Source: a virus
DNA length: 24,034 nucleotides
Direction: 5' to 3' (one strand)
UHGV virus genome: UHGV-0029496
Position numbers and translations under genes: made by a program. The notes beneath the pieces are model-generated. The model was given only the letters and a program-made list of their open reading frames with translations. It ran no database searches and was not told the DNA's origin. This document shows, in pieces, positions 10,077 to 23,676 of the stretch (position 1 is its first letter; each line of letters begins with the position of its first letter).

Positions 10077-10303
10077 CTTCAAAATACAACCGCACAATGA
10101 CAAACACCCACGGCAGCACTATGACTGTAGACGTTTACGATGTTCTCCGTGCTTTCGACATCCGCGACCCAGCGCTACAGCACGCATTAAAGAAACTGCT
10201 GTGCATGGGCTTGCGTGGTCACAAGGACACCGGGACCGACTTAGCGGAAGCGATTGAAAGTCTGGAGAAGTTACAGGAATACCGGAGTAATATTGATGAG
10301 TAA
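10073..10303 (+). CDS. Small hypothetical protein, translationally coupled to the phosphoesterase gene
   Basis: ATG overlaps the upstream TGA (ATGA at 10073-10076); 76 aa, helical and charged (DPALQHALKKLL...DLAEAIESLEKLQE). Confidence 0.55.
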   Translation: MTSKYNRTMTNTHGSTMTVDVYDVLRAFDIRDPALQHALKKLLCMGLRGHKDTGTDLAEAIESLEKLQEYRSNIDE

Positions 10304-10451
10304 GAAAAAGCGAACCCCAAACAACAACAACAACAACGTCCCGTATACCCCGCTGCCGTTTCCAGAGCCTAACAAGCCCTCGCCGCTTATGTCGGACAAC
10401 GAATGGCGGCGGGTCGCCAGAATGACCATCCGCCTGAGAAGACTGGCTTGA
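10296..10451 (+). CDS. Small Asn/Pro-rich basic protein
   Basis: ATG 10296 with GGAG 9 nt upstream, overlapping the end of the previous ORF by 8 nt; 51 aa MSKKKRTPNNNNNNVPYTPLPFPEP...; contains the (AAC)6 tract. Confidence 0.4.
   Translation: MSKKKRTPNNNNNNVPYTPLPFPEPNKPSPLMSDNEWRRVARMTIRLRRLA
10320..10337 (+). repeat. Perfect trinucleotide microsatellite (AAC)6, in frame (Asn6)
   Basis: aacaacaacaacaacaac read directly. Confidence 0.9.
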
Positions 10452-10463
10452 CCGATAAATAGT

Positions 10464-10483
10464 AAGGCCCTGAAAGGGGCCTT
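10464..10483 (+). terminator. GC-rich hairpin after the three-gene operon (weak terminator or attenuator)
   Basis: aaggccc-tgaaag-gggcctt, 7-bp stem, no clear U-tract. Confidence 0.3.
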
Positions 10484-10496
10484 ATCGCAACAGGAG

Positions 10497-10991
10497 ATGA
10501 TTATGGACTGGAATGAATTTTTCATATACGACTTAATTTCAGGAAGGATATTTAACAGAGTAACACGTTCCGGGAGGGCTAAGGCTGGAGAGGAGGCAGG
10601 TACGGTACAGCGAGACGGATATAGAAGGATATTTTTCAGGGGTAAATGGCACGCGGCGCACCGTATAGCTTGGGACTTAAACAATACTAACAATAAGCTA
10701 ACCTCGTCAGATCAAATAGACCATCTAGACCATAACCGAATAAACAATAGGCCGCTTAACTTAGCTAAAAAGTCCAATGCGGAAAACCATAAAAATATGT
10801 CAAAACAGCGTAATAATAAATCAGGAGTAACCGGGGTTTACTGGAACGCGAAAGAAAGGTTGTGGTACGCACAGATATTCAACAATAACGTAAAAACACA
10901 CATCGGGTGCTTTAAAACGCTACTAGATGCAGTTGCCGCAAGGAGAGTTGCTGAAAGAGATTTAGGGTTCCACGAGAACCACGGTAAATAG
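10497..10991 (+). CDS. HNH homing endonuclease with C-terminal AP2-like DNA-binding domain
   Basis: HNH core AHRIAWDL...IDHLDHNRINNRPLNL; C-terminal GVTGVYWNAKERLWYAQI...IGCFKTLLDAVAARR is AP2-like; Asn-rich and AT-rich codon usage unlike neighbours. AGGAG abuts ATG 10497, so ATG 10503 may be the true start. Confidence 0.75.
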   Translation: MIMDWNEFFIYDLISGRIFNRVTRSGRAKAGEEAGTVQRDGYRRIFFRGKWHAAHRIAWDLNNTNNKLTSSDQIDHLDHNRINNRPLNLAKKSNAENHKNMSKQRNNKSGVTGVYWNAKERLWYAQIFNNNVKTHIGCFKTLLDAVAARRVAERDLGFHENHGK

Positions 10992-17775: not shown

Positions 17776-18237
17776 TTATTCCGGCTTAGTAACCTTCGCC
17801 GCTTTGCTTACGGCCTCTACACCATCGGCATCGGTGGCTTTAACGAAGTATTCACCGACTGCATTAACTGTCAGAGACAGAGCCTCTTCCGGGGCGTTTA
17901 CCACTTCCTTACCGTCTTTGTACCAGGTCAGAGCATACGGGGCTTTACCCGCCTTAACTTCGACAGTGATAGTCGCACTGCCGTCTGCCAGTTCAGCGTC
18001 TTTCGGCTGTACCGAGAAGTACACGTCACCTGCATTGACCAAATACGGAATCTCATAAACCATACCTGCCGCGGGTAACGCAATACCGGTCTTGTCAGCA
18101 AACGGCATATCGTCTACAGGCGAACCCAGTACACTTTCATCTTCAATAAACACCACGTTCTCACCAGAGCCAGACACACGGGCGTACTGGACTACGCGAC
18201 GCGACGGCACATCAGTTACTTTGAAAAAGCCCATCAT
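17776..18237 (-). CDS. Ig-like domain protein (minor capsid or decoration candidate)
   Basis: AAGGGG SD; ATGATG start overlaps the upstream stop; C-terminal Ig-type signature YALTWYKDGKEV. Confidence 0.5.
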   Translation of the reverse strand: MMGFFKVTDVPSRRVVQYARVSGSGENVVFIEDESVLGSPVDDMPFADKTGIALPAAGMVYEIPYLVNAGDVYFSVQPKDAELADGSATITVEVKAGKAPYALTWYKDGKEVVNAPEEALSLTVNAVGEYFVKATDADGVEAVSKAAKVTKPE

Positions 18238-19313
18238 TATTCCCCTTTCAGATAATCAGCAACACGTTTATCGAGTTCCGCCATCTGCTTAAGCGTGAGC
18301 GGATTCCCGAAACCATCTACAGATATTACGCGAAACTCTTCCGGCGATATACCGCTGTTGCGGAAAATCTTACCGCGGGTCGGTCCGAGTGCTTCATCCT
18401 GAAACCATGCTGGTTGTTGTTTCAGGAACTCGTAATAGGTTGTGTCCGCGCTTACCTGAGTACCCCCGTCTGCACCCTTAGCCGCACGTTTTGCACCTTT
18501 ATCGAGGAAGTCGAACTCGGAACTGATTACCGGGGCCGTGCACGATCGACAGTTCGGATGGGCTGGGGGCATTGGACCTTTACCGATTTCCCACGTCATC
18601 CCATCTCTGGCTCTGCAAATCGTACTGGTACGGCTGTCCAGCGTCGACACCCATTCGTACTTCTCGATGATGTCGTCGTTCTGGCGGTACGTCTCGTTAC
18701 GCGCTTCGTTGGACACGTGCGACAGCGCGGTGCGGATTACTGTAGCTGCGTTACGTTCAGAGATGTCGGCAAGCCCACCCGCACCAACAACATTCTTAAC
18801 AATCTGCCGTGTGGTTTGACCTTGTACAAAACCCATCTTAACACCGGTTACCAGGCGCGATACTTCTGTTTCCCCCCAGCCATCCATCAGCTTCGTGAAA
18901 TCAACAGGCTTGTCACTTAACGATAATGGCTGAAACTCGGCCGCGGCCCACACCTGTTCCGCGGTAGGTGTGACAAATTCCGCGTTAACGTTGGTGGTAA
19001 GTGTCTTTACGTTCCACTCGGCCTCATACGCCGCCAGTTCCTTAAGGTCTTCTGTCAGCTTCGTTTGCCAATCACCGGTAAGCCTGGTCAATGCTTCTTC
19101 CAGGTCGCGCAACAATTTATTCAGTCGCGCAGTGCTGCGCCCATCGTCGCCGAATAACAGCACCTGCCGTTTGATTTCATCTCGCATCTCCTGGATGAAC
19201 GGTGCGAGGTCTTTCACTTCACCGGATGCGGTGCGTTGTAGCCATATCTGGTGGCTGATTAGTGATGTCAGTAAGCTCATAGATAAACCCTGTGGCGCTA
19301 AAGTTAATAGCAT
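18237..19313 (-). CDS. Head morphogenesis protein (Mu gpF / SPP1 gp7-like)
   Basis: 358 aa immediately downstream of the portal gene; C-terminal conserved PMPPAHPNCRSC motif characteristic of Mu-F-like proteins. Confidence 0.8.
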   Translation of the reverse strand: MLLTLAPQGLSMSLLTSLISHQIWLQRTASGEVKDLAPFIQEMRDEIKRQVLLFGDDGRSTARLNKLLRDLEEALTRLTGDWQTKLTEDLKELAAYEAEWNVKTLTTNVNAEFVTPTAEQVWAAAEFQPLSLSDKPVDFTKLMDGWGETEVSRLVTGVKMGFVQGQTTRQIVKNVVGAGGLADISERNAATVIRTALSHVSNEARNETYRQNDDIIEKYEWVSTLDSRTSTICRARDGMTWEIGKGPMPPAHPNCRSCTAPVISSEFDFLDKGAKRAAKGADGGTQVSADTTYYEFLKQQPAWFQDEALGPTRGKIFRNSGISPEEFRVISVDGFGNPLTLKQMAELDKRVADYLKGE

Positions 19314-19349: not shown

Positions 19350-20831
19350 TTACTGCTGATTGGCGTCCTGTTGTTGCGCCGACTGCGGAATCTCTCCTGA
19401 TACCTGAGCAACAGCACCTAATGGTAGGGGTGCGTCCTCAATCGCAGTCTTAATCTCCTCGTCAGTCCAGTCAGTAACCCCCGCCTTACGCAATGCCGCG
19501 TAGTAAGCAGTAGCGGGTAGCAGGCCGGCGTTAATATCCGCCATCCACTGCGCTCGTTCGGGCGCGGTCATCGGTTGCAGGAAGAACTCCATATTCAGTT
19601 TGAACTCAATCTCTGTGCCTTCACGCAACCCTAACATCGCAGCTACCCAGCGCAGCGCATCGGTGTACGCCATGCTTACGTTACGCGCGATTGTCGCCAT
19701 AACAGACGTGTCAGCACCACGTTGCAGGCGGGCCGATTCAGCGGTGATTTGCTGTGTCGGGGTGATAAGCTGCGCGCCAATCTGGATGGCCTGATTCTCT
19801 TTATCCAGCATGTTCTGTTTGGCGAGGTTATTCTCTCCCGCCTGGACCAGAAACGCGTTGCCGCCGTACCCGATGTTATGACCCGAACGTGACCCCATGC
19901 GCACGCCGTGGGGGTTGGCTTCTTTCCACTGTTCTATGCCCATGTTCTCCCCCGGGGCGATGAACAGAGTAGGCTGGCCAACAACGAAGCTGGACTCCTC
20001 ATTGTCTGCGCTGTTGCGGAAATGCCCAATATTAAGCTCAGCCAACGGCAGTAGAGGCGCATCGTCGATGGTCGCGTCGTTGTTGCTCGCCCCGATAAAC
20101 GTGAACGGGATTTTGCCGCGTAACTGTTCCCCAAGTTCCGGGAATATTTCGATTACTTCATCCTGGGCACCACCTTCGGCATCGAATCTGTAAATGCGCT
20201 GGCGGTAGCGCCCGTCAATCAGGTCAAGGACGCGGTATTGTTCACCGAACTTGGTTTCGAACTCTGCACCGGGTTCTGAGTATTCCCATACCTCACGCAG
20301 CACGACCATCGTCACGCGGTTAACTGAACCGACGCGAGTCAGTCGCCAGTTGATGATGTTCTCTGCGGTGTAGAATGCGATGACCGGGTTTAATAATCCA
20401 GCATTCTGTTCGGCCGCCGTGGCCGCAGCAGTCTCCGGGGCATCAACCAGCAACCCACCGCGGCCTACAGAGTCAATCTCCATCAGCGTATCCTGCGCGT
20501 GCTGCCACAGACCAACACCGGAGCCGTCCGCATTGCGTAACAGGTACTCCAGTTCAGGCGGAATAATTTGTTCCGGGTCTTTGCGCATCACCGACCCCAC
20601 CATCCCCGCCAGGGTACGCTTAGTGAAGTTGTAGCAGATAGCACCGTTCTCGTATTCTTCCTGGCGCTGGGCCGCGTAGGTCGGGTCAGGCTCATTCTTT
20701 CCGACGTTGCGAAGATAGCGAATAATGTCGCCTTCCAGAGCGTGGCGTACCTTCTGCCATTTATCGAAGTGATGCAGCCATTCCCGGTGTTTTGTCTTAA
20801 CACCTTGATTCTGACCGTTCATAGTTAACAT
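19350..20831 (-). CDS. Portal protein
   Basis: 493 aa between the terminase/HNH genes and the Mu-F-like gene; GGAG SD 9 nt before ATG 20831; size and position typical. Confidence 0.8.
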   Translation of the reverse strand: MLTMNGQNQGVKTKHREWLHHFDKWQKVRHALEGDIIRYLRNVGKNEPDPTYAAQRQEEYENGAICYNFTKRTLAGMVGSVMRKDPEQIIPPELEYLLRNADGSGVGLWQHAQDTLMEIDSVGRGGLLVDAPETAAATAAEQNAGLLNPVIAFYTAENIINWRLTRVGSVNRVTMVVLREVWEYSEPGAEFETKFGEQYRVLDLIDGRYRQRIYRFDAEGGAQDEVIEIFPELGEQLRGKIPFTFIGASNNDATIDDAPLLPLAELNIGHFRNSADNEESSFVVGQPTLFIAPGENMGIEQWKEANPHGVRMGSRSGHNIGYGGNAFLVQAGENNLAKQNMLDKENQAIQIGAQLITPTQQITAESARLQRGADTSVMATIARNVSMAYTDALRWVAAMLGLREGTEIEFKLNMEFFLQPMTAPERAQWMADINAGLLPATAYYAALRKAGVTDWTDEEIKTAIEDAPLPLGAVAQVSGEIPQSAQQQDANQQ

Positions 20832-20835
20832 AGTC

Positions 20836-21450
20836 TTACTCCGTAGTTAGTTTACGATATACAGCCGCGCACTTTCGCCCGCAGGTGACACGAGGTTTAT
20901 AGCGGTTATGCTCGTGAGTAGCGCCGCAGACGGGGCATATAGCTGTTACGTTATCTACCCCCGAAGCCCGTCTATGTGCCGCTAAGCATCTTTTAGAACA
21001 AAAACAATTCTCGCCCTTTGTCGGTATGGCCGTAAACTCTTTGTTGCAATAAGAGCATATTTTTTCAACCTTAACGTGAAGTTTGTCTTTTGTGGCTTCG
21101 TAATGTGCCTTATGCCACTGCCGGCCTGCTTCACTGGCGTGCCACTCTTTAGTTAAATGCTGGTGCTTGCGGCCCATTTCGGCCGACCTGGCACGCGCTT
21201 CATCAGTAGAGAAATGCAGATAGCTATGGTCTGACGCCGAAAGCATCTCTAGGTTTTCTATTTGATTATTTGAGCGGTCTTCGTCTTTATGGTGGATGTC
21301 ATACCCTTCTGGGATTTCCCCGTTGAAATATGACCATACAACTCTGTGCAACCTTTTAACAATTGATGAGTTCATAAAATAGTTACCACACAAATAGTAA
21401 CGCGTACCGTTAAATTCTTGGATTGTTGGGGATATAACTTTTACTCGCAT
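20836..21450 (-). CDS. HNH endonuclease with C-terminal Cys-rich zinc-ribbon region
   Basis: HNH core YDIHHKDEDRSNNQIENLEMLSASDHSYLH; Cys clusters CSYCNKEF, CFCSKRC, CPVCGATHEH, CGRKC. Track start is TTG 21477; ATG 21450 follows an AGGAGG SD. Confidence 0.8.
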   Translation of the reverse strand: MRVKVISPTIQEFNGTRYYLCGNYFMNSSIVKRLHRVVWSYFNGEIPEGYDIHHKDEDRSNNQIENLEMLSASDHSYLHFSTDEARARSAEMGRKHQHLTKEWHASEAGRQWHKAHYEATKDKLHVKVEKICSYCNKEFTAIPTKGENCFCSKRCLAAHRRASGVDNVTAICPVCGATHEHNRYKPRVTCGRKCAAVYRKLTTE

Positions 21451-21506
21451 ATAGCCTCCTGATTGTTTACCTGACAATATCAGTAAGACCGATGCGAGTA
21501 AATACG

Positions 21507-22742
21507 CTATAACGTGAATCTGACAGGAGTGTTGATAACAGGGCGGACAACAGGGAACAACCTATGCATACAATAACCTAAACTGTCGTTCCAGTCGTCG
21601 ATAGCCGGGTGAGTTTTAAACTTCTCCGGTTCACCATTATCGTTATACCCCTGCGTCTCCAGTGACTGCGTCAATTTAGGGCATTTTGAAGTGTTAACCC
21701 TCAAACGGCTATGTGACAAAAGAGCGTTAACCGCGTTTATTCTGTCTTTAACGAATGGGTTCTTACTCGGAGCGTTAACACGTAAGCCGGCCTTTTCGAT
21801 GATACCTATGTCGGATAACGATGCGTTAGTGTGGCCTGAGCGACCAGAGGCGTCAGGGTAAACCGTAACCGTATGGCCCGGATACCGTATCCTGACATTA
21901 TTGACGAAGTCGTCGGTATTATGGCTGACAAACTCATCAACAACCGTCGGGTTGCCGTCTTCGATAATGCTCACGGTGGCGCAACAGCCGCCGATGTTAA
22001 AGTCCAACCCTATGTGCAGAGCGTCTCCGTTCTGCAAGGTGCGAGTGGAGTCATGTGTGTTTCGTTTGAAATAGTGATACACCTTATTGGCCGTCAAACT
22101 GACAAATTCACCGTTGATATACATATCAGCCAAAGCCGCGTCGTAGTTCCTTCGTATCTGCTCGACGTAGCCGTCAGGTAAATATGGGTTCGACAATGTA
22201 GACGCCTTAATCAGTTCCGTAGAACTGTCAGCGTTAGTAACCCAATAGTCATACACAAATCCGGAGAATCCCTGGTCGGGCGTAGTCACGGCGGCAATAC
22301 TGTTCCCGCCCCTACATGGCTGTCGGGTGCGCTCTGAAATTTTACGCCACACCAGGGACGCCTGTTCTTTAGTAAGAACGTCAAGTTCATCGGCGACAGA
22401 ATGGGCTACTTCAAAAGCGATTAGACGGTTCGGGTTGTCATAGGACCTGAAAAACATAGTACCGTACCCCTTAACATGGATACTGTATTCCGATTTGTTG
22501 AGGTCATACTTAAGCCCCATCATATTCAGGTCATCAACCACACCAGGGATGGCGCGCAGCTTCAACAGGTCATATGTAGGCATGGTGTACAGGGTGTTTA
22601 TCCCGCGCTCGCGCAACATGAGATACAGGAGGCGCATAGTGGCCGCGCGGGACTTGCCCGCCCCCAGTCCAGCGACAATAGCTGGATGTGTCTTTGTACT
22701 GAATACAAAGTCCTGTTGGGGTTCTGTTAATGGAATATCCAT
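21507..22742 (-). CDS. Terminase large subunit
   Basis: Walker A GLGAGKS near the N-terminus, Walker-B-like LIAFEVAHSVADE, C-terminal Asp-rich nuclease-like region; TAATG overlap with the upstream small ORF. Confidence 0.85.
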   Translation of the reverse strand: MDIPLTEPQQDFVFSTKTHPAIVAGLGAGKSRAATMRLLYLMLRERGINTLYTMPTYDLLKLRAIPGVVDDLNMMGLKYDLNKSEYSIHVKGYGTMFFRSYDNPNRLIAFEVAHSVADELDVLTKEQASLVWRKISERTRQPCRGGNSIAAVTTPDQGFSGFVYDYWVTNADSSTELIKASTLSNPYLPDGYVEQIRRNYDAALADMYINGEFVSLTANKVYHYFKRNTHDSTRTLQNGDALHIGLDFNIGGCCATVSIIEDGNPTVVDEFVSHNTDDFVNNVRIRYPGHTVTVYPDASGRSGHTNASLSDIGIIEKAGLRVNAPSKNPFVKDRINAVNALLSHSRLRVNTSKCPKLTQSLETQGYNDNGEPEKFKTHPAIDDWNDSLGYCMHRLFPVVRPVINTPVRFTL

Positions 22743-23254
22743 TACTCGCCCCCCGGTTTAACAGCCTTAACGAAACGAATCTCGATAGGTTCAGAACCCT
22801 CGCCAGTCGATTCTTCTTTCTTATTCAGGCCCAGCTTCGCGGCAGCAAACGTAGCAGAGATACCCGCGGCCCCTGTCTCAGTGAAATACGCCTCTTCCAG
22901 CGCCTGTGCTGTCTCCCAGGCTTCTGCAAATGCGGGAATCTCGCGCAGCCACAGTTTGATAATCGGGATGGTGACGCCGATGTGTAAGGCGAAGCGGGCC
23001 AGTGACGGCGGTTTATCCTGAATCAGCGGGCGCTCGTCACCCTTAGACGTAGGCACAAGTTCCCATGACGTGCGGTCGAAGAAACGAATCAATTCGTCAC
23101 AATAGTCCGGGTCCCACAACGCGGCGGAATTACGGGATGATTGATAAAGGCTCTGTTTGCCGCGCGGTCGTTTACGGCGACGGTTTGCGCTAACAGCTTC
23201 TTCATGTGCAGCTTGCACCACCTCTGGCGATGGCTGCTTGAGTTTCAGCTTCAT
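22742..23254 (-). CDS. Terminase small subunit (by position and HTH-like segment)
   Basis: Directly upstream of and overlapping the large terminase gene; basic N-terminus (RRRKRPRGK) and helix-turn-helix-like LARFALHIGVTIPIIKLWLRE. Track start is GTG 23293; ATG 23254 follows an AAGGGGA SD. Confidence 0.5.
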   Translation of the reverse strand: MKLKLKQPSPEVVQAAHEEAVSANRRRKRPRGKQSLYQSSRNSAALWDPDYCDELIRFFDRTSWELVPTSKGDERPLIQDKPPSLARFALHIGVTIPIIKLWLREIPAFAEAWETAQALEEAYFTETGAAGISATFAAAKLGLNKKEESTGEGSEPIEIRFVKAVKPGGE

Positions 23255-23294
23255 AGAATCCCCTTGCATATGCGTCTGACCATCAGAGCGCACC

Positions 23295-23325
23295 AGACGC
23301 GCCCTACGCGTCTAAAGGGATTATA
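23295..23325 (-). promoter_or_regulatory. Promoter / operator candidate upstream of the terminase genes
   Basis: Minus-strand TATAAT (plus 23320-23325) about 65 nt upstream of ATG 23254; inverted repeat agacgcg-cccta-cgcgtct (23295-23313) just downstream of it; GGGATT direct repeats nearby. Confidence 0.25.
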
Positions 23326-23345
23326 TAAGGGGATTGGGCGGGATG

Positions 23346-23372
23346 TACAGAAAAGCCATCCGTAGATGGCTT
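23346..23372 (-). terminator. Terminator-like hairpin upstream of the terminase genes
   Basis: agccatc-cgta-gatggct (7-8 bp stem) followed on the minus strand by UUUCUGUA. Confidence 0.45.
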
Positions 23373-23478
23373 GTCGGTCAGTTATATAGGCCGCGTCGTG
23401 GTGCTCTTTTACCATCGCCGCCGTAATGGTCGTTAGCTACGGCGATAGTCCAGGCGTTCGGGATGATTAACAGTTTCA

Positions 23479-23655
23479 TCAGCAAATATCTACCAGTACG
23501 TCGTAATTATCGCTTAGATACTGTAACGCATCCCCTCTTTCTACAAACTCGTCGCCAACAGCAAATGTTCCATCAGAGACGTCGATTAGGAGGTCATCGC
23601 GCCCGATAAACTGGAATACCACCTGCCCGTTGTCGTCAAGAAGCGTATGCAGCAT
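23479..23655 (-). CDS. Possible small acidic protein (58 aa)
   Basis: Hand-found ORF MLHTLLDDNGQVVFQFIGRDDLLIDVSDGTFAVGDEFVERGDALQYLSDNYDVLVDIC; no recognisable SD (A/U-rich upstream), so coding status is uncertain. Confidence 0.3.
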   Translation of the reverse strand: MLHTLLDDNGQVVFQFIGRDDLLIDVSDGTFAVGDEFVERGDALQYLSDNYDVLVDIC

Positions 23656-23676
23656 AAGTAATAATAGTTTTTTTGT

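What the first reader, a model, noticed from the sequence alone, without database searches (positions are those of the whole stretch)
20836..21450. HNH endonuclease with zinc-ribbon tail lodged between terminase large subunit and portal
A second, unrelated HNH gene interrupts the otherwise contiguous terminase-portal pair. HNH proteins adjacent to terminase genes are known in some cos-type phages to take part in DNA cleavage during packaging; alternatively this is a selfish homing endonuclease insertion. The C-terminal four-Cys clusters suggest a zinc-binding DNA-recognition module.
Basis: partly seen in the sequence, partly recalled or inferred. Interest (0 to 1): 0.45.

Follow-up and report, generated by a model that had tools for sequence, protein, structure and literature searches.

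The report
Selfish HNH endonuclease gene beside terminase
The gene is real, but it is a mobile "selfish" DNA-cutting gene that landed between the phage's DNA-packaging and portal genes, not a part of the packaging machine; its relatives in other phages mostly live inside self-splicing protein elements (inteins) of the same packaging gene.

Summary
A 204-aa ORF on the minus strand (20836-21450) has an I-HmuI-type HNH core (Pfam HNH_3, E=9e-19). It also has two C-terminal four-Cys modules that are conserved across the family. It lies between terL (21507-22742) and the portal gene (19350-20831) of a Kagunavirus-like, pac-type coliphage.

The homing-endonuclease reading is supported and the packaging reading is not. 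The closest relatives (TerL up to 99% identical) lack the ORF and have only 12 nt between terL and portal. Just one of 161 related phage records carries it. A roughly 0.68-kb cassette replaced that spacer and the last three terL codons. The gene is under purifying selection. A strong hairpin sequesters its ribosome-binding site and start codon, as in known T4-type homing endonuclease genes.

The family is large (1,386 clusters at E<=1e-30) and sits in or next to terL almost everywhere examined. In 66 of 80 metagenomic loci it lies inside a TerL intein, either out of frame in a continuous intein ORF or splitting it. The free-standing form seen here is the minority.

Verdict: a new member of a known kind, of moderate interest.

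The parts
20836..21450 (-). Coding sequence of the free-standing HNH homing endonuclease (204 aa)
   Evidence: ORF and sequence. Pfam HNH_3 E=9e-19 and phrog_15471 E=2e-42. Purifying selection, 12 synonymous to 3 non-synonymous and 26 to 4. AlphaFold2 model with mean pLDDT 96.
21358..21450 (-). N-terminal four-stranded beta-sheet domain (residues 1-31), the position of the N-terminal DNA-binding sheet in I-HmuI
   Evidence: Strands E4-7, E10-13, E16-21 and E24-27 in the model. Conserved QEFNG..Y motif. The comparison with I-HmuI's domain layout is from my own knowledge of PDB 1U3E.
21223..21354 (-). HNH (beta-beta-alpha-metal) catalytic core, residues 33-76, with H53/H54, N62, N66 and H75 (plus H79 just after)
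   Evidence: Pfam match to residues 33-76. H54, N62 and N66 invariant; H53, H75 and H79 at least 90% conserved. Profile match to I-HmuI (1U3E), E=5e-6.
21079..21204 (-). Two long helices (residues 83-124) carrying the conserved EWH.SE.GR.WH motif; linker between the nuclease and the zinc modules
   Evidence: Helices H83-105 and H107-124. W103, H104, S106, G109 and H113 at least 90% conserved.
20962..21069 (-). Zinc module 1 (residues 128-163): C132-x2-C135 ... C151-x3-C155, FCS-like
   Evidence: All four Cys invariant. Profile match to the polyhomeotic FCS finger 2L8E, E=0.004. YacG-like fold, probability 0.93, rmsd 2.7 A over 37 residues.
20842..20952 (-). Zinc module 2 (residues 167-203): C172-x2-C175 ... 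C190-x3-C194; a tandem repeat of module 1
   Evidence: C172, C175 and C190 invariant, C194 at least 90% conserved. Same strand-strand-helix layout as module 1 in the model.
21455..21459 (-). Shine-Dalgarno GGAGG of the HNH gene, 4 nt before the ATG
   Evidence: Read directly from the sequence.
21433..21511 (-). RNA hairpin running from the terL stop codon to HNH codon 6. It pairs both the SD and the AUG of the HNH gene and is a predicted translational throttle.
   Evidence: MFE -28.8 kcal/mol, z=-4.2, 0 of 200 shuffles fold as well. The same structure is kept in all five HNH-carrying genomes, with no covariation available because they are too similar. Comparable SD/AUG-occluding hairpins occur in PAE1, SN1 and EauM-23 homologues. 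This mechanism is documented for I-TevI/II/III, segB and mobE (PMC2988022).
20832..21516 (.). Approximate extent of the inserted cassette relative to HNH-less relatives. It replaces the 12-nt terL-portal spacer plus the last three codons and stop of terL.
   Evidence: Alignments with hz69, L020, L021 and L022 (lacking the gene) and Ec1-ASingh (carrying it).
21507..22742 (-). terL (411 aa, no intein). Its last 25 nt (21507-21531) form the densest cluster of differences from HNH-less relatives.
   Evidence: Pfam and PHROG matches. 11 of 25 nt differ from hz69 and L020, against 5-6% over terL as a whole. HNH-less L022 shares half of the tract.
21573..21599 (-). terL codons 382-390 (DDWNDSLGY), the nuclease active-site motif. 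Inteins that carry this HNH family are inserted at the equivalent point in other phages.
   Evidence: Alignment of TerL C-termini and spliced exteins, with junctions DHI|CDAGEY, DH|SYDSLRY, DDA|CDAT and IDA|CRY. Hint and Intein_splicing Pfam hits.
19350..20831 (-). Portal gene. Its Shine-Dalgarno (GGAG, 20839-20842) now lies inside the last codons of the HNH gene.
   Evidence: Sequence. Portal identification. In HNH-less relatives the SD GAGGA lies in the 12-nt spacer.

Best explanation
The ORF is a free-standing homing endonuclease gene and not a component of the packaging motor.

The protein is built like I-HmuI: an N-terminal beta-sheet, an HNH nuclease core and a helical linker. In place of I-HmuI's C-terminal helix-turn-helix it carries two tandem FCS-like zinc modules.

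The gene arrived as a roughly 0.68-kb cassette in the 12-nt gap between terL and the portal gene of a pac-type Kagunavirus-like phage. The cassette overwrote the last three terL codons and brought a new ribosome-binding site for the portal gene. No promoter or terminator match was found on its strand, so it is probably co-transcribed with the late packaging operon. Translation is probably held low by a hairpin that buries its SD and AUG.

Inferred mechanism: in a mixed infection with an HNH-less relative, the enzyme nicks or cuts the rival genome in or near the terL 3' end and portal 5' junction. Recombinational repair from the HNH-carrying genome then copies the cassette and flanking markers into the rival.

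What is shown here: the gene, its domains and its conservation; its sporadic distribution; the cassette boundaries; the hairpin prediction; and the family-wide link to terL. What is inferred: cleavage activity, the target site, DNA binding by the zinc modules, and translational repression.
For: 1. Absence from close relatives. Of 161 phage records matching the terL-portal region, only PQ561395 has the ORF. hz69, phage 26, AV104, BCH953P1 and LM02P1 (91-92% nt identity) align in two pieces that skip it. None of 32 IMG/VR loci with TerL 49-99% identical carries it.

2. Presence is discordant with the flanks. The window's terL is closer to HNH-less L020 and L021 (97.5-98.5% in 21649-21948) than to HNH-carrying Ec1-ASingh (94%). 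Between the window and Ec1-ASingh, divergence is 2.4% in the HNH, 4.6% in terL and 10.5% in the portal gene.

3. The HNH is better conserved than TerL across lineages. Against PAE1 the HNH is 46% identical while TerL is undetectable; against L013 the figures are 51% and 34%. In Shemara the HNH is 45% identical and sits antisense in the same gap, while TerL is 39% and the portal 78% identical.

4. Family context. In all 14 annotated or metagenomic contexts first examined, the gene is inside or directly 3' of terL. Of 80 IMG/VR loci, 34 are nested out of frame in a TerL-plus-intein ORF. A further 32 split a TerL intein and about 8 are free-standing after an intein-less terL. Inteins are selfish elements, so this is a homing-endonuclease lineage.

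5. Closest solved relative is the homing endonuclease I-HmuI.

6. An SD/AUG-sequestering hairpin is present, a documented form of homing-endonuclease gene regulation.

7. Related kagunaviruses are pac/headful packagers by PhageTerm, and TerL has its own RNase H-like nuclease domain.
Against: No cleavage, homing or co-conversion event has been observed; mobility is inferred from distribution.

The intein-site motif in terL (21573-21599) shows no difference that tracks with the HNH gene. The enzyme therefore either does not cut there or self-immunity lies elsewhere.

The recoded terL tail is only partly specific to the HNH. HNH-less L022 shares half of it, and the portal gene has clusters of similar density.

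All HNH-carrying kagunavirus genomes found have the same junctions. A single ancestral insertion followed by recombination of the flanks would fit as well as repeated homing.

A position next to terL that is kept across bacterial phyla could also reflect a functional tie to TerL. Two loci (L096, L110) place the gene upstream of terS, which is the packaging-HNH position.
Confidence: 0.85

Rival explanations
1. Packaging accessory. Like HK97 gp74 and the staphylococcal cos-phage HNH proteins, the enzyme would work with terminase to cut concatemers during packaging. Its place next to terL and the portal gene would reflect that job.
For: It is adjacent to terL and the portal gene and shares their strand and operon. 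The link to terL holds across phyla. Two loci have the order HNH-TerS-TerL. HNH enzymes with zinc ribbons next to terminase genes are a described class (PMC3592412).
Against: The gene is absent from more than 150 related, viable kagunaviruses, including ones with 99%-identical TerL. Relatives are pac/headful packagers, not cos.

The described packaging HNHs lie upstream of terS and have a [CxxC]2 zinc site inside the catalytic core. This protein matches only HNH_3, and its catalytic core (residues 33-76) contains no cysteine.

Shemara carries its copy antisense. Most family members sit inside inteins.
Confidence: 0.04
2. Competition weapon that benefits the phage. The nuclease would mainly serve to cut the terL-portal region of co-infecting HNH-less relatives and exclude their markers. 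It would then be kept because it helps its carrier, not only because it copies itself.
For: The gene is intact and under purifying selection across about 5% synonymous divergence. It is regulated rather than silent. Its likely target is an essential late gene. Homing endonucleases at boundaries of genetic exchange between phages are described in the literature retrieved (PMC10448857, listed; abstract only read).
Against: This cannot be separated from plain homing with the data here, because both predict the same sequence patterns. The gene is rare in the genus (1 of 161 records, plus three metagenomic contigs), which does not suggest a strong advantage.
Confidence: 0.1
3. Inactive relic. The ORF would be a decaying remnant of an old insertion with no present activity.
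For: Homing endonuclease genes often decay once fixed. No activity data exist. The copy is rare.
Against: The catalytic residues and all eight Cys are intact. Synonymous changes outnumber non-synonymous ones 12 to 3 and 26 to 4. The ORF is full length in five genomes. The structure model is confident.
Confidence: 0.03

Closest known systems
I-HmuI (PDB 1U3E), the intron-encoded HNH homing endonuclease of Bacillus phage SPO1
   Same: It is the best solved-structure match by sequence profile (E=5e-6) and the top Foldseek hit. It shares the HNH_3-type catalytic core without a CxxC zinc site. It also shares the elongated modular build of N-terminal beta-sheet, nuclease, helices and C-terminal DNA-binding module; that layout is from my own knowledge of 1U3E.
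   Different: I-HmuI is encoded in a group I intron and ends in a helix-turn-helix. This protein is free-standing and intergenic, with no Rfam intron hit. It ends in two FCS-like zinc modules.
Free-standing HNH homing endonucleases of T-even phages (T4 mobA-E; Aeh1 mobE)
   Same: Both are intergenic insertions between conserved genes, sporadic among relatives, with an HNH core plus a distinct C-terminal region. [quoted passage not shown]
   Different: The sequence family is unrelated beyond the HNH core. No late promoter inside the hairpin is evident here. The target is unknown. The neighbouring gene is terL rather than nrd genes.
Fractured genes and non-canonical inteins: free-standing endonuclease genes inside split inteins (Dassa et al. 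2009, PMC2677866), and out-of-frame endonucleases inside actinophage inteins (Gosselin, Arsenault and Gogarten, bioRxiv 10.1101/2025.01.02.630785)
   Same: Relatives of this gene, 36-51% identical, occupy exactly these arrangements in TerL inteins.
   Different: The window's terL has no intein, and the gene sits after the stop codon. The published cases involve GIY-YIG, Vsr-like, LAGLIDADG or endonuclease VII-like enzymes, not this HNH_3 plus twin-zinc family.
HK97 gp74-type and 'zinc-ribbon HNHE' packaging nickases (Kala et al. 2014, from my own knowledge as the paper is not held; Xu and Gupta 2013, PMC3592412)
   Same: These are HNH nucleases with extra zinc modules encoded next to terminase genes.
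   Different: Those genes lie upstream of terS next to cos and have [CxxC]2 in the catalytic core. From my own knowledge of Kala et al., they are required for packaging in their phages. This gene lies between terL and portal, is HNH_3 type, is dispensable within its genus, and is in a pac-type phage.

Membership tests
Free-standing HNH homing endonuclease genes (I-HmuI / HNH_3 type) | HNH beta-beta-alpha-metal catalytic core with conserved general-base His and metal-ligand Asn/His | tested here: met
   Pfam HNH_3 E=9e-19. H54, N62 and N66 invariant; H53, H75 and H79 at least 90% conserved. I-HmuI match E=5e-6.
Free-standing HNH homing endonuclease genes (I-HmuI / HNH_3 type) | Sporadic presence among closely related genomes, with a clean insertion between conserved genes | tested here: met
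   1 of 161 phage records and 0 of 32 IMG/VR TerL relatives carry it. HNH-less relatives have terL stop, 12 nt, then portal ATG.
Free-standing HNH homing endonuclease genes (I-HmuI / HNH_3 type) | Separate DNA-binding module attached to the nuclease | tested here: inconclusive
   Two conserved four-Cys modules with a confident model and weak FCS/YacG similarity. DNA binding was not tested.
Free-standing HNH homing endonuclease genes (I-HmuI / HNH_3 type) | Site-specific cleavage of the gene-less allele and super-Mendelian inheritance with co-conversion | not testable with these tools
   This needs enzyme assays and phage crosses. The only indirect signs are flank discordance and a cluster of differences at the terL 3' end.
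Cos-packaging HNH proteins (HK97 gp74 / zinc-ribbon HNHE class) | Gene located upstream of terS next to the cos site (order HNH-TerS-TerL-portal) | tested here: not met
   The order here is TerS-TerL-HNH-portal. The class order is given in PMC3592412, Table 2.
Cos-packaging HNH proteins (HK97 gp74 / zinc-ribbon HNHE class) | [CxxC]2 zinc site within the HNH catalytic domain | tested here: not met
   No cysteine in residues 33-76 (sequence). Only the HNH_3 model matches among HNH families in Pfam. The feature is described.
Cos-packaging HNH proteins (HK97 gp74 / zinc-ribbon HNHE class) | Conserved in, and required by, all phages of the group; cos-type ends | tested here: not met
   The gene is missing from nearly all kagunaviruses. 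Relatives Shashou and Snoke are pac/headful by PhageTerm. The packaging mode of this phage itself was not determined.
Intein-encoded homing endonuclease | Endonuclease lies within an intein (Hint N- and C-terminal splicing blocks) that interrupts the host protein | tested here: not met
   The window's TerL is 411 aa with no Hint or Intein_splicing hit, and is collinear with HNH-less relatives. Homologues in TJE1, Highwayman, phiCDHM19, MD07 and 66 of 80 IMG/VR loci do lie in TerL inteins, but out of frame or splitting them.
FCS / treble-clef zinc finger | C-x2-C ... (F)C-x3-C four-Cys site in a short strand-strand-helix unit | tested here: inconclusive
   Spacing and the consensus 'FCSxxC' fit. 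Profile hits to FCS fingers reach E=0.004-0.16. YacG fold match has probability 0.93 but a Foldseek E-value above 1. The Pfam VATC hit is below its cut-off.

The most novel reading that the evidence does not exclude
The window's gene may be the 'escaped' or 'pre-invasion' state of a lineage specialised on terL that moves between three habitats:
- free-standing just after terL;
- wedged between the halves of a split TerL intein;
- overprinted out of frame inside a continuous TerL intein.

Members of the three states are interleaved at 45-55% identity. The family would then be a living series showing how inteins gain and lose endonucleases. In that case the window's enzyme would recognise the terL nuclease-motif region, about 135 nt upstream of its own start codon. 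That would make it a partner for 'collaborative' homing of endonuclease-less TerL inteins.
Probability: 0.3. Interest if true: 0.6.

Novelty: new member of a known kind. Interest (0 to 1): 0.35.

Why it matters
For this phage, the result settles an annotation question. An HNH gene next to the terminase should not be read as a packaging factor. It is dispensable cargo that could be removed in engineered or therapeutic derivatives, and it marks a likely recombination hot spot in the packaging module.

More widely, the gene links a coliphage to a very large endonuclease family (1,386 clusters at 50% identity) that tracks terL across bacterial phyla. That family occurs in three arrangements, two of which are rare, recently described intein architectures. 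It therefore offers tractable E. coli, Pseudomonas and Acinetobacter phage systems for testing how free-standing endonucleases invade inteins. It would also allow tests of how two reading frames are kept open at once.

Tried and rejected
- **Group I intron or other structured RNA around the gene:** no Rfam match at E<=1 in 20500-21900.
- **Own promoter or terminator:** the consensus scans gave no minus-strand site and no excess over shuffles.
- **Intein in the window's terL:** none.
- **The dense recoding of the terL tail as a clean immunity signature:** only the last three codons and the stop are specific to HNH carriers. The adjacent tract is also present in HNH-less L022, and the portal gene has clusters of similar density. 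I keep it only as a candidate.
- **Global fold search:** uninformative beyond I-HmuI and YacG, because the model is elongated and multi-domain.
- **The search for related loci with the wide alignment A2:** failed for lack of conserved stretches; redone with the narrower A3.
- **Literature:** Kala et al. 2014 (PMC4000778) is not in the held library, so statements about HK97 gp74 rest on my own knowledge and on PMC3592412. The first literature search on Kagunavirus packaging was unhelpful.
- **P0098 (Streptomyces):** could not be placed on a contig.
- **First synonymous-shuffle script:** timed out. A retry failed on a missing file. The third run worked.

Full report
**1. What is in the sequence**

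The window carries the late and structural region of a Kagunavirus-like (Guernseyvirinae) coliphage. The terL-portal segment matches 161 phage records, nearly all Escherichia or Salmonella Guernseyvirinae. On the minus strand the gene order is as follows:
- terS, 22742-23293 (phrog_3064);
- terL, 21507-22742 (411 aa, Terminase_6N/6C);
- the ORF in question, 20836-21450;
- portal, 19350-20831 (DUF4055, phrog_145);
- a Mu-F/SPP1 gp7-like head protein, 18237-19313.

The ORF starts at an ATG that lies 4 nt after a GGAGG, and encodes 204 aa. Its residues 33-76 match Pfam HNH_3 at E=9e-19. The whole protein matches phrog_15471 'HNH endonuclease' at E=2e-42.

**2. The protein**

Alignments of 45 and 57 homologues show the following:
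- H54, N62 and N66 are invariant.
- H53, H75 and H79 are conserved in at least 90% of sequences.
- A central EWH.SE.GR.WH motif is conserved.
- Seven of the eight cysteines of the two C-terminal clusters are invariant, and the eighth (C194) is at least 90% conserved.

The two clusters are a tandem repeat of C-x2-C…(F)C-x3-C followed by a helix. An AlphaFold2 model built on 57 sequences is confident, with mean pLDDT 96. It shows a four-stranded N-terminal sheet, the HNH core, two long helices, and two strand-strand-helix zinc units.

The only significant solved relative by sequence profile is the homing endonuclease I-HmuI (1U3E, E=5e-6). The zinc units give weak hits to FCS-type fingers and to YacG. 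Its role in DNA recognition is an inference from the modular design of such enzymes.

**3. Is it part of the packaging machine?**

The answer is clear.
- In hz69, phage 26, AV104 and Kagunavirus BCH953P1 and LM02P1 (91-92% nt identity), the match breaks into two pieces that skip the ORF.
- In hz69 the terL stop is followed by 12 nt and then the portal ATG.
- A tblastn search of the protein against 50,697 phage records finds a close copy only in PQ561395 (Ec1-ASingh, 98.5%).
- None of 32 IMG/VR contigs encoding TerL relatives has it, including three with TerL 99% identical.
- Three further metagenomic contigs carry a 99%-identical copy in the same position.

Related kagunaviruses (Shashou, Snoke) are predicted by PhageTerm to package by a pac/headful mechanism. 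TerL also has its own RNase H-like nuclease domain.

The described packaging HNH enzymes lie upstream of terS next to cos and have a [CxxC]2 site in the catalytic core (PMC3592412). This protein has neither feature. I therefore reject the packaging reading (about 4%).

**4. Signs of mobility**

The cassette is about 0.68 kb. It replaces the 12-nt spacer and the last three codons plus stop of terL: F-T-L-TAG here against F-A-L-TAA in relatives. The portal's Shine-Dalgarno now lies within the last HNH codons.

Presence of the gene does not follow the flanks. In 21649-21948 the window's terL is 97.5-98.5% identical to HNH-less L020 and L021 but 94% to HNH-carrying Ec1-ASingh. Between the two HNH-carrying phages, divergence is 2.4% in the HNH, 4.6% in terL and 10.5% in the portal gene.

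The gene is under purifying selection: 12 synonymous to 3 non-synonymous differences, and 26 to 4.

The last 25 nt of terL are the densest cluster of differences in terL against hz69 and L020 (11 of 25). HNH-less L022 shares half of this tract. I therefore treat it only as a candidate target or immunity region.

In Salmonella phage Shemara (Cornellvirus), a 45%-identical homologue sits in the same terL-portal gap on the opposite strand. Its TerL is only 39% identical to the window's, while its portal is 78% identical. That points to an independent insertion.

**5. Regulation**

No promoter- or terminator-like site lies on the gene's strand, so it is probably transcribed with the packaging operon.

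The 56-nt spacer and the first codons fold into a hairpin at 21433-21511. Its free energy is -28.8 kcal/mol, with z=-4.2, and 0 of 200 shuffles fold as well. It pairs both the SD and the AUG. The hairpin is unchanged in all five HNH-carrying genomes, although they are too similar to show covariation.

Similar SD/AUG-occluding hairpins precede the homologues in PAE1, SN1 and EauM-23, but not those in Shemara, L013, L017 or L019.

Sequestration of the ribosome-binding site by a hairpin is the documented control of I-TevI, I-TevII, I-TevIII, segB and Aeh1 mobE (PMC2988022).

**6. The family, and where it lives**

This is the unexpected part. Full-length homologues (35-51% identical) occur in phages of Pseudomonas, Sphaerotilus, Salmonella, Lactobacillus, Exiguobacterium, Tetrasphaera, Acinetobacter, Clostridioides, Rhodobacteraceae and Brochothrix. 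In every case examined they lie inside or directly 3' of terL.

The HNH is better conserved than TerL across these lineages. With PAE1, for example, the HNH is 46% identical while TerL is undetectable by tblastn. The gene has therefore moved between different terL types yet keeps landing at terL.

In TJE1, Highwayman, phiCDHM19 and MD07 the 'long TerL' contains an intein, with Hint and Intein_splicing hits. The intein is inserted in the nuclease motif DH|xDAxRY. The intact HNH ORF lies inside the intein-coding region but in another reading frame, while the TerL/intein frame stays open. Synonymous-codon shuffles keep that frame open only 1 in 5,000 times (Highwayman) and 2 in 5,000 times (phiCDHM19). 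Both frames are therefore maintained by selection.

In L014, L055, BL3 and CL2, terL is split into an N-extein plus N-intein ORF, the HNH ORF, and (seen in L014, L055 and BL3) a short C-intein plus C-extein ORF.

A survey of 80 IMG/VR loci (55 clusters at 90% identity) gave these counts:

| Context | Loci |
|---|---|
| Nested out of frame in a TerL-plus-intein ORF | 34 |
| Splitting a TerL intein | 32 |
| Free-standing after an intein-less terL | about 8 |
| Upstream of terS | 2 |
| Antisense between split halves | 1 |
| Truncated contigs with a C-intein ORF downstream (probably split) | 2 |
| Unresolved | 1 |

None was in frame with the intein.

Free-standing, nested and split members are interleaved at 45-55% identity. 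The window's protein is 51% identical both to a free-standing copy (L013) and to a nested copy (L057). A profile search of 1.84 billion representatives found 1,386 clusters at E<=1e-30, almost all 200-300 aa.

In the window, the equivalent terL motif (DDWNDSLGY, 21573-21599) lies about 135 nt upstream of the HNH start codon.

**7. Relation to what is known**

Free-standing homing endonucleases next to conserved phage genes, and their hairpin control, are textbook (PMC2988022). 'Fractured genes', with a free-standing endonuclease between split-intein halves, were described for GIY-YIG and Vsr-like enzymes, and HNH was predicted as a possibility (PMC2677866). [quoted passage not shown] A hidden out-of-frame HNH in a phage methylase has also been described (PMC11855218).

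The window's gene is therefore a new member of a known kind. The family-level pattern is this: an HNH_3 plus twin-zinc endonuclease specialised on terL, found in three arrangements and well beyond actinophages. It extends those recent reports rather than founding a new category.

**8. Mechanism and confidence**

The most likely mechanism (0.85) is a selfish homing endonuclease. It would cut or nick HNH-less relatives in or near the terL 3' end and portal 5' junction during co-infection, and be copied in by recombinational repair. Its expression would be throttled by the hairpin.

What is shown:
- gene, domains and conservation;
- dispensability across the genus;
- cassette boundaries;
- the family's tie to terL and to inteins;
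- the predicted hairpin.

What is inferred:
- nuclease activity;
- target site;
- DNA binding by the zinc modules;
- translational repression.

The main weakness is that the intein-site motif shows no difference that tracks with the HNH gene, so the target and the basis of self-immunity remain open. In addition, all HNH-carrying kagunavirus copies found could descend from one insertion.

**9. Verdict**

Novelty: new member of a known kind. Interest is 0.35. The gene itself is ordinary, but it opens onto a large terL- and intein-associated endonuclease family that deserves a dedicated survey.

Noticed in passing
L006:2608-3522, L007:2857-3531, L008:2029-2718, L009:2968-3477, and 34 of the IMG/VR loci L057-L136: Homologues of the window's HNH are intact ORFs nested in a different reading frame inside TerL-intein coding regions, while the TerL/intein frame stays open. 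In AT-rich Highwayman and phiCDHM19, synonymous shuffles keep that frame open only 1-2 times in 5,000. No member of the family was found in frame with the intein.
   Followed up: yes
L014:2431-4809, L055:2425-4815, L012:727-2607, L005:506-2590, and 32 of the IMG/VR loci L057-L136: terL is split into an N-extein plus N-intein ORF, the HNH ORF, and a 70-98 aa C-intein plus C-extein ORF. This is a 'fractured gene' or split-intein-like arrangement with an HNH_3 endonuclease. One such cluster (P0047) was seen on about 25 contigs.
   Followed up: partly
window 10497-10991 (+): This is the other HNH gene (164 aa; weak Pfam HNH_3; phrog_99, E=5e-49). It lies antisense to the tail genes, next to the tail tube gene, and overlaps a 140-aa minus-strand ORF (10271-10693). 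It is also sporadic: only 5 of 83 related phage records carry it at 95-97% identity, and KMB36 annotates it as an HNH homing endonuclease.
   Followed up: partly
L096:3917-6629 and L110:3878-6319: In two IMG/VR contigs the same HNH family sits immediately upstream of terS (order HNH-TerS-TerL-portal). That is the position typical of cos-packaging HNH genes and is an exception to the rule that the family lies in or just after terL.
   Followed up: partly
L003:3001-3591 (Shemara) and L135:3684-4493: These copies of the family are inserted antisense to terL. In Shemara the copy lies in the terL-portal gap; in L135 it lies between the two halves of a split TerL intein.
   Followed up: no
window 23381-23657: Just upstream of terS, identity to otherwise 90-98% identical relatives drops to 37-47%. 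A small-gene cassette (ORFs 23251-23415 and 23479-23655 on the minus strand) appears to have been swapped.
   Followed up: no
window 17800-18600 compared with L002 (Ec1-ASingh): The other HNH-carrying phage is essentially unalignable with the window here (41-52% identity). This region holds the Ig-like-domain protein gene (17776-18237) and the 3' part of the Mu-F-like head gene. HNH-less hz69 is 85-97% identical over the same stretch, which indicates mosaic exchange close to the packaging module.
   Followed up: no
L004:4523-5110 (PAE1 Orf6); Snoke and KMB36 head-morphogenesis genes: The packaging and head module attracts other selfish elements. PAE1 has a second annotated homing endonuclease between the portal and head-morphogenesis genes. 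Some kagunaviruses (Snoke, KMB36) carry an intein in the Mu-F-like head protein, which the window's 358-aa copy appears to lack.
   Followed up: no
L004:2195-2290, L010:2916-3010, L011:2931-3025: The free-standing homologues in PAE1, SN1 and EauM-23 also have strong hairpins (z from -3.6 to -4.7) that pair their Shine-Dalgarno and start codon. Those in Shemara, L013, L017 and L019 do not.
   Followed up: partly
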